Shown: positions 24,001 to 27,000 of the stretch, piece by piece
How the letters are laid out: each line of letters begins with the position of its first letter
Numbering within the stretch: the first letter of the stretch is position 1
Assembly (NCBI GenBank): GCA_036785375.1
Contig: JAWMAR010000786.1
Coordinates: 434,001-498,000, forward strand
DNA length: 64,000 nucleotides
Direction of reading: 5' to 3'
DNA from: Leucoraja ocellata
Lineage: Eukaryota
Made by a program: the position numbers

Positions 24001-27000
24001 TTCCTGCTCAAATTTCCAGCATCTGCAGTCTCATGTGTTTACATTTTAGATGATACTGCACTAAAAATATTTAATCATATATCTTGCTCTTTGCCAAATA
24101 CTTTACATCTAGTTTCTTCAGTTAACTCTTTCGATGGAAAATTTCTCCTTACCTTGGCTGCATGGTTGTGAGTGTACAAGGGGTATAGCAAGGGGCTACA
24201 GTTGAGAATTTCAATTAGCTCTTGTTATGATGAACCATAGGGGTTAGTGCGGGAGTTGTGTCTGATATTGCCAATTGTCCGCTATAACTGAGTATCATTA
24301 TATGGAGTTGAAACAAAGAATTGCAGATGATTCTTAGTGCACAAAGGGACTCAAAGTGCTGGAGTAACTCAGCAAGTCAGGCCACGTCTCTGGAGAATAT
24401 GGATGGGTGACGACGGGATCCTTCTTCAGAACAACTTAGTCAACTGAGTTACTCCAGCACTGTGTTATTTTTCCCTAAAACCAAGTGCCAATTGCCGCTG
24501 GTCTGCACCAGCGACCCCGTCGTCATCAGTTGACACGGCTGTTGTTGCGGCTCACATTGGAGCCCCTGACGGAACAGTTCACTGACTCAAAGCAATCGTG
24601 AAGGATCTCGCCTGTTTCCTCAAACCAATGCTGCATAACTTTTTGTTTTTGCTTGCCATTAGCTTGTCTCTTAGTCAATATGTCAAAATGCATCAGTTTA
24701 CATTTCTCTACATTAAATACCCTCCATTACTTGTCAATCTTGCTTACAATGAGCATTGATTGAAGTTTGCATGTTCTCTCTGACTGTATGAGATTTTGGA
24801 TTTTCTCACACCACAAAGCTGAGTGGGTTGGCAGGTTAATTGGCTGCTGTAGCAGCTGCTAGGGTGTAGTTGAGTGGTAGATTTTTTGGGTGGTGGGAGG
24901 ATGACAATGTGGGGAAATAATTATTTAGTCTATGATTGATGATTTAATACGTGTCATTTCTTATCTCGCAGGACATTGTGACGGAAAGTTCCAAGTTTGA
25001 TCTTGTGGCTTTTGTTCCTCTCTTGAGAGAGCGAATTTATTCCAACAATCAGTATGCTAGGCAATTCATAATCTCCTGGGTGAGTTCCAAAGCACATTCC
25101 ACTTCTTCTGTTTAAAATAAAAAGTTGACTTTGTTGTTTAAATCAGAAGCTATCATTTAAGATCTAAATGAAAAAGAGTTAATATTCCAAGACCCACCAA
25201 TGTTACTTCCCTTCGTGTTACTTTGTGGTGCTTGACTGAATCCTGTAAAACAAGGACTAACCAGCAGAATCGGTGTCCTCACTAAAGTTCCTAGCATCTT
25301 AGTCATGCTAAGGTACCATTAACTTTATTATCTTTATTCATATCTGTGGCCCGATTATAAACATGAAGGAATGATTGGATCGATATGATGTAGATATTAT
25401 GTAGATATTTCCAGATTTAAACATACACAGATGTACTTGAGTCACTTTCTTGTGTCTGGCTTGATATTTGAAAGATCGATCGAATGTCAAAGTGGGAAGG
25501 CTATCCAACTATTTTCAACCCTTCCATGTTGCAGATCCTTGTATTGGAATGTGTTCCCGATATCAACTTGCTAGACTACTTGCCAGAAATCTTGGATGGG
25601 CTCTTTCAGATCCTTGGAGATAACAGTAAAGAGATCCGCAAAATGTGAGTGGGCAATCTTCAATCAATGCTCATTGTAAGCAAGATTGACAAGTAATGGA
25701 TGATATTTAATGTAGAGAAATGTAAACTGATGCATTTTGACATATTGACTAATAAGAGACAAGCTAAATGGCAAGAGCAGAGAGACCCGAGTGCATATGT
25801 GCACATTTATTTGAAAATTGAATCGCGTGACTAGTAAAGCCTGGTGATTCTGGGTCCCAATACACACTAGCTACAACTGTAAGTATTGCATCAAGTTCTG
25901 ATCATCTTATTTTAAAAGTATTTGAAAGTTCTGAAGTGGATATAGAAAAACAAATATTCCAGAATGGTTAGAGGGATTTAAGGCTTCAATTTTAATTTGA
26001 CCAGAGAAATTAGGATTCTCGGAACAAACAAAATTAAGAGGCGATTTGATGGGGGTGTACAAGATCATGAAAAAGAGTAGATACAGGATACTCAGATGGT
26101 TAAAGGATACACTAAAACATTTTAAGCAAAATGTGCACCAGAAAATGTGAAGGAAAACAAATGTGCTTTGAGGTGTCATGGCTTGGACATCATTCCCCGC
26201 AAATATCATGGAAACAGAATCAATTGGAATTGAATAGGCACTTGAGAAAAAAACAAGGTGCAGAGTCATGAGTTAGATGGAGAGAATAGTCTTATGGATT
26301 GCTCTGCTAGGACCCATTATAGGTAATGGGTTGAATGGTTCCTTTTAGCCCATTGCAGTAACACCGAAGGGCCATTGTTTTTATCAGTTCTAATTCTACC
26401 ACTACCTGAAAGTGTTACGACACATCCTGAAATGCAATTGATTCAAGGCTAATCTGCCTTGGTTTGTTAGAAGTACTGACTCAAACGAGGCCAATCAAGT
26501 TTAGTGTACATCCAAACATGATGAAAGGCCCTAGTTTACGATCACCCTTGCACCTTGTTTTGGATGATGCTCATTGACATTGAGCTGTCTTGGCCAGTTA
26601 CTATCTTTCATAAAAATTACCCAGAGGCTTGGTGTTTGTCCTGGATAGGTCCACTTATCACTGGCTTGGTCCTGGGCTTGGACTAACGCAGGTGAAATCC
26701 CAAATGAGTAAGAAGGAACTGCAGATGCTGGTTTAAACCAAGGATGGACACAAAAAGTCTGAAGAAGGGTCTTGACCTGAAACATCACCCTTTCCTTCTC
26801 TCCAGAGATGCTGCCTGTCCCGCTGAGTTACTCCAGCTTTTTGTGTCTATCCCAAATGAGTAGGTTTGTTGCCTGTAAAAGATGCCAAAGAAATTTGTAC
26901 AGGTGGAATGAATGTCTTCTGAGTACTGAACTGAAAGTACAACAATTTTCTTCCATCAATTGCAGGTGTGAGACGGTCCTCATTGAGTTTCTGAAAGAGA

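What the first reader, a model, noticed from the sequence alone, without database searches (positions are those of the whole stretch)
24652..25775. Near-perfect ~120-bp inverted repeat bracketing VAC14 exons 5 and 6 (circRNA / exon-skipping / editing architecture)
Seen: 24652-24770 is the reverse complement of 25653-25775 with only a handful of differences. The right arm starts 8 nt into intron 6 and the left arm ends ~200 nt upstream of the exon-5 acceptor, looping out two exons (108+110 = 218 nt, not a multiple of 3). The right arm partly belongs to a heavily decayed CR1, yet the two arms share the same decayed bases and flanking sequence. That points to a local inverted duplication or gene conversion rather than two independent insertions. 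Known: reverse-complementary intronic matches promote back-splicing, skipping and ADAR editing. Inference: the locus may yield a 218-nt circVAC14, or a frameshifting exon 4-to-7 skip that tunes VAC14 through NMD.
Basis: partly seen in the sequence, partly recalled or inferred. Interest (0 to 1): 0.72.

Follow-up and report, generated by a model that had tools for sequence, protein, structure and literature searches.

The report
Inverted repeat bracketing two VAC14 exons
A small piece of an old, broken jumping gene in one VAC14 intron was copied backwards into an intron two exons upstream, which could loop out those exons in the RNA, but nothing yet shows that it does anything.

Summary
24652-24770 is the reverse complement of 25653-25775: 116 of 123 aligned columns match, with 3 mismatches and 2 indels (E 1e-51). 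The pair brackets VAC14 exons 5 (24972-25079) and 6 (25535-25644).

The right arm is the first 123 nt of a 5'-truncated, heavily decayed CR1-like LINE fragment. That fragment continues collinearly to about 26231. The left arm is an isolated, inverted copy with no LINE continuation and no target-site duplication. Both arms share an in-frame stop and an 8-codon deletion. The copy was therefore made locally, from right to left, long after the LINE decayed. A replication template switch or templated break repair is the most likely mechanism.

The arm sequence has only these two copies in the 64 kb window. A short interspersed element in the same window has 14 hits.

As RNA the arms form a duplex of -183.8 kcal/mol. 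They pair with each other in the fold of the whole exon 4 to exon 7 stretch.

Back-splicing, a frameshifting exon 5-6 skip and RNA editing are plausible by analogy only. No RNA data, related genome or sequencing reads could be examined. My verdict is a real, young, probably neutral duplication: a textbook candidate for circular RNA, of modest interest.

The parts
24652..24770 (-). Left arm. An isolated 119-nt inverted copy of the start of the intron-6 LINE fragment, lying in VAC14 intron 4, 201 nt upstream of exon 5. The LINE sense is on the minus strand.
   Evidence: Alignment. The minus-strand translation matches the right arm, including the stop. Named LINE proteins hit only 24667-24747 in intron 4 (E 0.013-0.044), with nothing beyond. 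No flanking direct repeat longer than 5 nt.
25653..25775 (+). Right arm. The first 123 nt of the decayed LINE fragment, starting 8 nt after the exon-6 donor.
   Evidence: The LINE protein alignments (25700-25819) cross the arm's end at 25775 in one frame.
25653..26231 (+). A 5'-truncated, heavily decayed CR1-like LINE fragment (C-terminal part of the reverse transcriptase and beyond). It is the donor of the duplicated segment. Its 3' limit is not fixed.
   Evidence: All 6 named LINE-derived proteins hit 25700-25819 (25688-25819 for P0140), E 4e-5 to 7e-3. A collinear second match lies at 26004-26231 (best E 5e-5). The family was identified through the better copy at 1311-1727.
24972..25079 (+). 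VAC14 exon 5 (108 nt, phase 0).
   Evidence: AG/GT borders and translation. VAC14 hits. tblastn of P0034, 95%.
25080..25534 (+). Intron 5 (455 nt), inside the loop.
25535..25644 (+). VAC14 exon 6 (110 nt).
   Evidence: AG/GT borders. tblastn of P0034, 100% over 37 aa.
22840..22902 (+). VAC14 exon 4 (63 nt). It would supply the donor of a skip junction.
26966..27072 (+). VAC14 exon 7 (107 nt). It would supply the acceptor of a skip junction. Read in phase 0 it gives one codon and then a stop.
24348..24430 (-). A copy of a short high-copy interspersed element in intron 4. It is the weaker, second complementary partner across the same exons.
   Evidence: Inverted pairs I2/I3. Family hits. Duplex with 26758-26847 is -108.4 kcal/mol. 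Its competitor within intron 4, 23913-23998, gives -80.3.
26756..26851 (+). A copy of the same short high-copy element in intron 6.

Best explanation
Shown: a CR1-like LINE copy, truncated at its 5' end and now heavily decayed, lies in sense orientation in VAC14 intron 6. It begins 8 nt after the exon-6 donor. Its first 123 nt also occur, inverted, in intron 4, 201 nt upstream of exon 5. That second copy is isolated and carries the same decay marks.

Inferred: the left arm was made by a local DNA-level event that copied right to left, long after the LINE had decayed. A replication template switch or templated repair of a break is the most likely mechanism.

Shown by computation: in the pre-mRNA the two arms can form a nearly perfect duplex of about 119 bp that loops out exons 5 and 6.

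Inferred by analogy with tested repeats: this duplex should favour some back-splicing into a 218-nt circle. It should also favour some skipping of exons 5-6, which puts a stop codon two codons into exon 7 and so makes a target for nonsense-mediated decay. Heavy A-to-I editing of the arms is likewise expected. I see no sign of selection. The most likely status is a young, neutral duplication whose RNA products, if any, are by-products.
For: - Repeat: 116/123 identities, E 1e-51.
- Copy number: only two copies in 64 kb, plus one 33-nt 85% match inside another LINE copy. A 96-nt interspersed element gives 14 hits, counting itself.
- LINE identity: the better copy at 1311-1727 gave 480 hits among 2237 candidates. 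Many of the 120 listed carry RVT_1 (some also endonuclease domains). They include Leucoraja erinacea proteins at 90-92% and bird and turtle reverse transcriptases mostly at 41-55%.
- Right arm in LINE context: 6 of 6 named LINE proteins hit 25700-25819 (25688-25819 for P0140) and again, collinearly, within 26004-26231.
- Left arm isolated: in intron 4 only 24667-24747 is hit.
- Shared decay: TAA stop and 8-codon deletion in both arms.
- No target-site duplication of 6 nt or more.
- RNA: duplex -183.8 kcal/mol against -31.5 +/- 4.8 (minimum -56) for 200 shuffles. In the minimum-energy fold of the 4244-nt exon 4 to exon 7 stretch, 114 of 119 left-arm positions pair with the right arm.
- Literature: 30-40 nt inverted repeats suffice for circularisation (PMC4201285, passages). 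Such matches promote both back-splicing and skipping (PMC8330042, abstract). Template-switch copies reach 318 bp in human haplotypes (10.1101/2021.11.26.470150, passages).
Against: - No transcript data of any kind were available, so no circle, skip or editing is shown.
- No related genome was available, so the direction and age of the copy rest on internal evidence alone.
- No microhomology was seen at either junction that would point to a particular mechanism.
- The arms are 882 nt apart. The template-switch study kept only events spanning at most 250 bp (10.1101/2021.11.26.470150, methods passage).
- The copied segment starts exactly where the LINE fragment starts. I cannot explain this other than as chance.
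- Strengthening the hairpin between repeats sometimes strongly inhibited circularisation (PMC4201285, passages).
- Intron 4 may be spliced out before the right arm is transcribed (inference).
- All 3 mismatches break pairing rather than giving G-U pairs, so pairing shows no sign of being maintained.
- Genome-wide copy number was not tested.
Confidence: 0.6

Rival explanations
1. Two independent insertions of the same LINE family in opposite orientation, possibly homogenised later by gene conversion.
For: This LINE clade is abundant. tblastn with named LINE proteins finds about 15 fragments in the 64 kb window. Inverted pairs of transposon copies are the usual source of intronic complementary matches (PMC4201285, passages).
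Against: - Both arms start at the same LINE position, and both carry the same stop and the same 8-codon deletion.
- They are about 97% alike, while their translation is only 31-35% identical to intact relatives.
- The left copy lacks everything 3' of the arm. A LINE insertion should retain that part.
- No target-site duplication.
Confidence: 0.07
2. The arm is a member of a young, multi-copy non-autonomous repeat that happens to contain an old LINE piece. The two copies would then be ordinary dispersed repeats.
For: Only 64 kb could be searched, and no genome of this animal was available.
Against: The window holds only the two copies plus one 33-nt 85% match, against 14 hits for a true short interspersed element. 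The right arm is continuous in frame with the rest of its LINE. The flanks of the left arm are unique in the window.
Confidence: 0.05
3. Assembly artefact: the left arm was inserted or inverted by mis-assembly.
For: The 1-nt gap lies in a T run and the 3-nt gap lies in a short TTA repeat. Both are contexts prone to consensus errors. No reads were available.
Against: An artefactual copy should be identical, but here there are 3 substitutions as well. The window holds no N. Both arms sit in unique, otherwise ordinary intron sequence with intact exons between them.
Confidence: 0.04
4. A selected regulatory element. The duplex is kept because the circle, or the skip isoform destined for decay, sets VAC14 output.
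For: The position is striking: the right arm starts 8 nt after the exon-6 donor and the left arm ends 201 nt before the exon-5 acceptor. No competing partner exists in the window. The skip gives an immediate stop.
Against: There is no conservation or expression evidence. The 3 mismatches all break pairs. The sequence is a recent copy of junk DNA. Searches found no paper naming a VAC14 circular RNA (0 papers; 1 paper, listing only, unrelated by title). Supplementary tables were closed and could hold such lists.
Confidence: 0.07

Closest known systems
Reverse complementary matches in the introns flanking circular-RNA exons (for example Alu pairs at human ZKSCAN1; the zip-2 match in C. elegans)
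   Same: Inverted complementary sequences lie in the introns on both sides of the exons, close to the splice sites. They are longer than the 30-40 nt shown to suffice (PMC4201285, passages). The same kind of element promotes both back-splicing and skipping (PMC8330042, abstract).
   Different: Here no circular RNA has been observed. The pair is not two transposon insertions but one old LINE piece and a local inverted copy of it. At 119 bp and about 97% identity the duplex is far cleaner than the other inverted pairs less than 5 kb apart in this window (about 76-88%).
Mouse Sry circular transcript flanked by long inverted repeats
   Same: A locus-specific inverted duplication, not a dispersed repeat pair, brackets the circularised exon (as cited within PMC4201285, passage).
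   Different: The Sry repeats exceed 15 kb and at least 400 complementary nt were reported as needed there (same passage). Here the arms are about 120 nt and bracket two coding exons of a housekeeping-type gene.
Short-range template-switch mutations that create inverted copies and RNA hairpins
   Same: One event writes a reverse-complement copy of nearby sequence and so creates a perfect stem at once (PMC8794818 and PMC5453318, search listing and abstract starts; 10.1101/2021.11.26.470150, passages). The copy length of 119-123 nt lies within the reported range, whose longest case is 318 bp.
   Different: The distance between donor and copy (882 nt) is larger than in the catalogued events, where a span of at most 250 bp was required. 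The ancestral state is unknown here.
LINE 5' inversion by twin priming
   Same: An inverted LINE segment lies near a direct LINE segment and shares its 5' end.
   Different: Twin priming puts both segments side by side within one insertion. Here 882 nt of host sequence with two conserved exons lie between them. The shared decay marks show the copy was made long after insertion.

Membership tests
Exons flanked by reverse complementary matches (circular-RNA architecture) | Complementary sequences in inverted orientation in the upstream and downstream flanking introns | tested here: met
   24652-24770 in intron 4 and 25653-25775 in intron 6, 116/123.
Exons flanked by reverse complementary matches (circular-RNA architecture) | Match long and stable enough to pair (at least about 30-40 nt) | tested here: met
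   About 119 bp, -183.8 kcal/mol against -31.5 +/- 4.8 for 200 shuffles. Threshold from PMC4201285 (passages).
Exons flanked by reverse complementary matches (circular-RNA architecture) | Pairing across the exons wins over pairing within one intron | tested here: met
   There is no other copy of the arm in the window. 114 of 119 left-arm positions pair with the right arm in the 4244-nt minimum-energy fold. This is a thermodynamic prediction only and ignores co-transcriptional kinetics.
Exons flanked by reverse complementary matches (circular-RNA architecture) | Canonical acceptor and donor on the exons to be circularised | tested here: met
   AG before 24972, GT after 25644.
Exons flanked by reverse complementary matches (circular-RNA architecture) | Back-splice junction observed, RNase R-resistant product | not testable with these tools
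CR1-like LINE (non-LTR retrotransposon with apurinic-type endonuclease) | Homology to the reverse transcriptase protein of the clade | tested here: met
   - Right arm: 6 of 6 named LINE-derived proteins, E 4e-5 to 7e-3, 33-35% identity (blastp).
- Left arm: weak, E 0.013-0.044.
- Clade assignment goes through the better copy at 1311-1727, whose hits carry RVT_1 and endonuclease domains and include bird and turtle proteins.
- Direct searches with the arm failed: Pfam gave nothing relevant, the word search gave 0, and HMMER gave 2 hits, of which P0121 proved to be a translated tandem repeat and P0122 was not examined.
CR1-like LINE (non-LTR retrotransposon with apurinic-type endonuclease) | Copy extends to the element's 3' end and is flanked by a target-site duplication | tested here: inconclusive
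   - Right copy: collinear homology to about 26231; 3' end and duplication not identified.
- Left copy: no 3' continuation and no duplication of 6 nt or more. It is therefore not a LINE insertion in its own right.
Short-range template-switch mutation | Reverse-complement copy of nearby sequence on the same chromosome, of a length within the observed range | tested here: met
   119-123 nt, against a longest reported case of 318 bp (10.1101/2021.11.26.470150, passages).
Short-range template-switch mutation | Donor and copy very close together (the study kept spans of at most 250 bp) | tested here: not met
   882 nt lie between the arms.
Short-range template-switch mutation | Ancestral allele without the copy | not testable with these tools
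   No eukaryotic genome collection was available.
Twin-priming LINE inversion | Inverted and direct LINE segments adjoin within one insertion | tested here: not met
   Exons 5 and 6, intron 5 and 201 nt of intron 4 lie between them.
DNA transposon with terminal inverted repeats (miniature or foldback type) | Inverted repeats at the element's ends, target-site duplication outside, mobile interior | tested here: not met
   The interior holds two conserved VAC14 coding exons. There is no direct repeat of 6 nt or more beside the left arm. The right arm continues into LINE sequence.

The most novel reading that the evidence does not exclude
A single local inverted-copy event created a working splicing switch from nothing. 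On this reading the 119-bp duplex drives a 218-nt circular RNA from VAC14 exons 5-6, together with a skip isoform that carries an early stop. These measurably lower VAC14 output in this skate lineage, and the pairing is kept by selection or gene conversion. That would be a dated, one-step birth of a circular-RNA locus in a cartilaginous fish, with the donor sequence still in place beside it.
Probability: 0.07. Interest if true: 0.55.

Novelty: new member of a known kind. Interest (0 to 1): 0.3.

Why it matters
If the predicted RNAs exist, this locus is a clean natural test of how one long, nearly perfect intronic match affects back-splicing, skipping and editing. There is a single partner, no competing copies nearby, and a known donor sequence. 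It would also show that a local inverted copy, not a pair of transposon insertions, can create such an architecture in one step. VAC14 is a scaffold of the enzyme complex that makes the lipid PI(3,5)P2 (recalled), so a frameshifting skip would matter if it were frequent. If the RNAs do not exist, it is an ordinary neutral intronic duplication.

Tried and rejected
- **Pfam on single exons and arm translations:** nothing useful. Exon 5 gave no family, exon 6 a weak HEAT_EZ match (E 0.16), and the arms nothing relevant.
- **Solved structures:** exon 5 gave none. Exon 6 gave only weak transportin HEAT repeats, and no VAC14 chain matched.
- **Word-based protein search with the 61-aa arm translation:** 2 candidates, none significant.
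- **HMMER against 1.84 billion representatives:** 2 hits at E about 1e-10. I rejected P0121: it has 12 matched stretches, is a translated tandem repeat and has no Pfam family. P0122 (6 stretches, 6414 aa) was not examined.
- **Pfam on other decayed LINE copies in the window:** nothing.
- **Rfam on 22800-27100:** no match at E up to 1.
- **Target-site duplication or microhomology at the left arm's junctions:** only a 5-nt TTTTG and an 8-nt TCTCTCTG at chance level, E 1.6.
- **LINE remnants elsewhere in intron 4:** none.
- **Twin priming and terminal-inverted-repeat transposon readings:** rejected (see membership tests).
- **Literature:** no paper names a VAC14 circular RNA. A search for circular RNAs in sharks and skates returned nothing relevant among the 12 listed of 5,298.
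- **Not done:**
  - The bacterial and archaeal genome scan was not spent, since it cannot answer the question.
  - The complex prediction, structure prediction and protein atlas tools were not used.
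Full report
**Observation**

- blastn of the two regions gives one minus-strand alignment, 24652-24770 (119 nt) against 25775-25653 (123 nt). It has 116 of 123 identities, one 1-nt gap, one 3-nt gap and three mismatches, E 1e-51.
- The repeat finder reports an ungapped 100-nt core at 97%, with 882 nt between the arms.
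- A self-comparison of the window found 35 inverted pairs with E<1e-5. This pair ranks second by score. It is the best of the 8 pairs less than 5 kb apart. It is one of only 3 pairs with at least 90% identity over at least 50 nt, and the other two are copies of a short high-copy element.
- The window contains no N.

**Gene context**

- Exon 5 is 24972-25079 (108 nt) and exon 6 is 25535-25644 (110 nt). Both have AG/GT borders.
- Exon 4 is 22840-22902 and exon 7 is 26966-27072.
- Eight intronic nucleotides precede the right arm, and 201 follow the left arm before exon 5.
- Exon 5, extended by four intronic codons to reach the tool's 40-aa minimum, matched 656 of 660 candidates. Many are named VAC14 in sharks and rays at 97% identity.
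- Exon 6 was searched alone in Pfam and in solved structures. It gave only weak HEAT-repeat matches.
- A named ray VAC14 protein (P0034, Hypanus sabinus) maps to the window as ordered blocks. These place the two exons fifth and sixth, with exon 6 at 100% identity.
- I do not take the window for human. Its transposon proteins are 90-92% identical to little skate (Leucoraja erinacea) entries, so it most likely comes from that species or a close relative. That is an inference.

**What the arms are made of**

Read on the plus strand, the right arm translates to a decayed stretch of the C-terminal part of a LINE reverse transcriptase. Direct searches with this 61-aa translation failed:
- Pfam gave nothing relevant.
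- The word-based search found nothing.
- The exhaustive HMMER search gave two hits. P0121 proved to be a translated tandem repeat with no Pfam family. P0122 was not examined.

I therefore went through a better-preserved copy in the same window, the open frame at 1311-1727.
- It matched 480 of 2237 candidates. Many of the 120 listed carry the reverse transcriptase domain, and some also carry the apurinic-type endonuclease domains.
- Skate and ray proteins matched at up to 92% (unnamed sources up to 96%), and bird and turtle reverse transcriptases mostly at 41-55%. This is the profile of a CR1-like LINE.
- Six named proteins from that list were then compared with introns 4 and 6.
- In intron 6, all six hit 25700-25819 (25688-25819 for P0140; E 4e-5 to 7e-3). 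All six also hit a second, collinear block within 26004-26231 (best E 5e-5).
- In intron 4, only the arm itself (24667-24747, minus strand) is hit (E 0.013-0.044). Nothing lies where the LINE should continue.
- The protein alignments cross the right arm's end at 25775 without a change of frame.

**Origin**

- Both arms carry the same in-frame TAA stop. Both carry the same 8-codon deletion relative to intact relatives. Both begin at the same LINE position.
- Their translation is only 31-35% identical to intact relatives, yet the arms are about 97% identical to each other. The copy was therefore made long after the LINE had decayed.
- The right arm sits in its native LINE context and the left does not, so the direction was right to left.
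- The left arm has no flanking direct repeat longer than 5 nt. It also lacks the LINE 3' part that retrotransposition needs, so it is not an insertion in its own right.
- Twin priming is excluded, because two conserved exons lie between the arms.
- A transposon with terminal inverted repeats is excluded for the same reason.
- The arm sequence occurs only twice in the window, apart from a 33-nt 85% match inside another LINE copy. A 96-nt interspersed element gives 14 hits, counting itself.
- The best-fitting known process is a replication template switch or templated break repair, which writes inverted copies of nearby DNA in one step. Copies up to 318 bp are reported in human haplotypes (10.1101/2021.11.26.470150, passages; PMC5453318 and PMC8794818, listing and abstract starts only).
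- Against a simple fit, the arms are 882 nt apart, further than the spans kept in that study. I also found no junction microhomology.
The homology ends at the LINE's own 5' end and, on the other side, inside the LINE.
- I cannot explain why the copied segment starts exactly at the LINE's truncation point.

**How it might act**

- As RNA, the arms form a duplex of -183.8 kcal/mol. Two hundred shuffles of one arm gave -31.5 +/- 4.8, with a minimum of -56.
- In the minimum-energy fold of the whole 4244-nt stretch from exon 4 to exon 7, 114 of 119 left-arm positions pair with the right arm. The 1231-nt fold agrees.
- The donor of exon 6 itself stays unpaired from 25640 to 25648, and the helix begins at intron position +9.
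- A second, weaker complementary pair across the same exons comes from two copies of the short interspersed element (24348-24430 and 26758-26847, -108.4 kcal/mol). It has a competitor within intron 4 at -80.3.
- Published mutagenesis shows that inverted repeats of 30-40 nt suffice for circularisation. It also shows that strengthening the hairpin sometimes strongly inhibited circularisation. The authors suggest that ADAR enzymes may counteract such pairing (PMC4201285, passages).
- In C. elegans, such matches promote both back-splicing and skipping of the same exons (PMC8330042, abstract).
- By analogy, this locus should give some 218-nt circle and some exon 4 to exon 7 skip.
- Exon 7 read in phase 0 gives one codon and then a stop. 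The skip would therefore be a candidate for nonsense-mediated decay.
- Read by eye, the back-splice junction would create a start codon followed by a stop three codons later. The circle therefore has no meaningful reading frame.

All of this is inference, because no transcript data were available.

**Signs of selection**

There are none. All three mismatches break pairs rather than giving G-U pairs. With three changes this has little power. Rfam finds no known RNA family in 22800-27100. No paper in the searchable library names a VAC14 circular RNA. Supplementary tables, which might list such circles, were closed.

**What stayed unchecked**

Four things remain open: genome-wide copy number of the arm, presence of either arm in other skates, rays and sharks, long-read support, and all RNA evidence. 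No eukaryotic genome or read collection was available.

**Verdict**

This is a real, young, locally made inverted duplication of decayed LINE sequence. It gives VAC14 exons 5-6 the textbook architecture of a circular-RNA locus. It is a good, cheap candidate to test, but as it stands it is a new instance of a known kind and most likely neutral.

Noticed in passing
window 11507-11954 and 61067-61523: The strongest inverted pair in the window: 458 nt at 88%, the 3' parts of two LINE copies in opposite orientation. One lies in VAC14 intron 1 and the other in the intron before the exon at 62307, so together they bracket most of the mapped exons.
   Followed up: no
window 873-957, 8328-8420, 17558-17653, 26756-26851, 35897-36048, 37723-37974, 40753-40808, 43583-43675, 52037-52116 and others: A short interspersed element of about 96 nt gives 14 hits in 64 kb at 78-100% identity, in both orientations. 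Copies in introns 4 and 6 form a second complementary pair across exons 5-6. I did not identify its family name.
   Followed up: partly
window 2640-3069, 3401-3514, 3500-3999: Purine-rich tandem arrays are followed by a GC-rich stretch (GC 0.69, CpG observed/expected 0.73, against 0.42 and 0.37 for the window) a few hundred bases upstream of VAC14 exon 1 (4574-4678). This is probably the promoter CpG island.
   Followed up: no
window 46830-47085 and 36879-37002: Two clean tandem repeats: 48 nt x 5.3 copies at 92%, and 38 nt x 3.3 copies at 90%.
   Followed up: no
window 30427-30627, and between 30627 and 51781: The ray VAC14 reference aligns at only 54% over the ninth block. Its residues 365-380 find no match in the window, so a short or divergent exon may lie in the long intron.
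   Followed up: no
protein hits P0148, P0165, P0191: LINE reverse transcriptases 51-63% identical to the window's copy are labelled as Carnobacterium maltaromaticum, Klebsiella pneumoniae and Clostridioides difficile proteins. They sit on contigs of 1-3 kb. They look like vertebrate DNA contaminating bacterial assemblies.
   Followed up: no
window 1314-1724, 5525-6383, 11587-11945, 15970-16267, 22254-22717, 38768-39043, 41597-44096, 45791-46021, 47310-47832, 50476-50550, 60872-61436: About 15 fragments of the same CR1-like LINE clade lie in the 64 kb, at very different states of decay. The copy at 1311-1727 is still open and 92% identical to little skate entries.
   Followed up: partly
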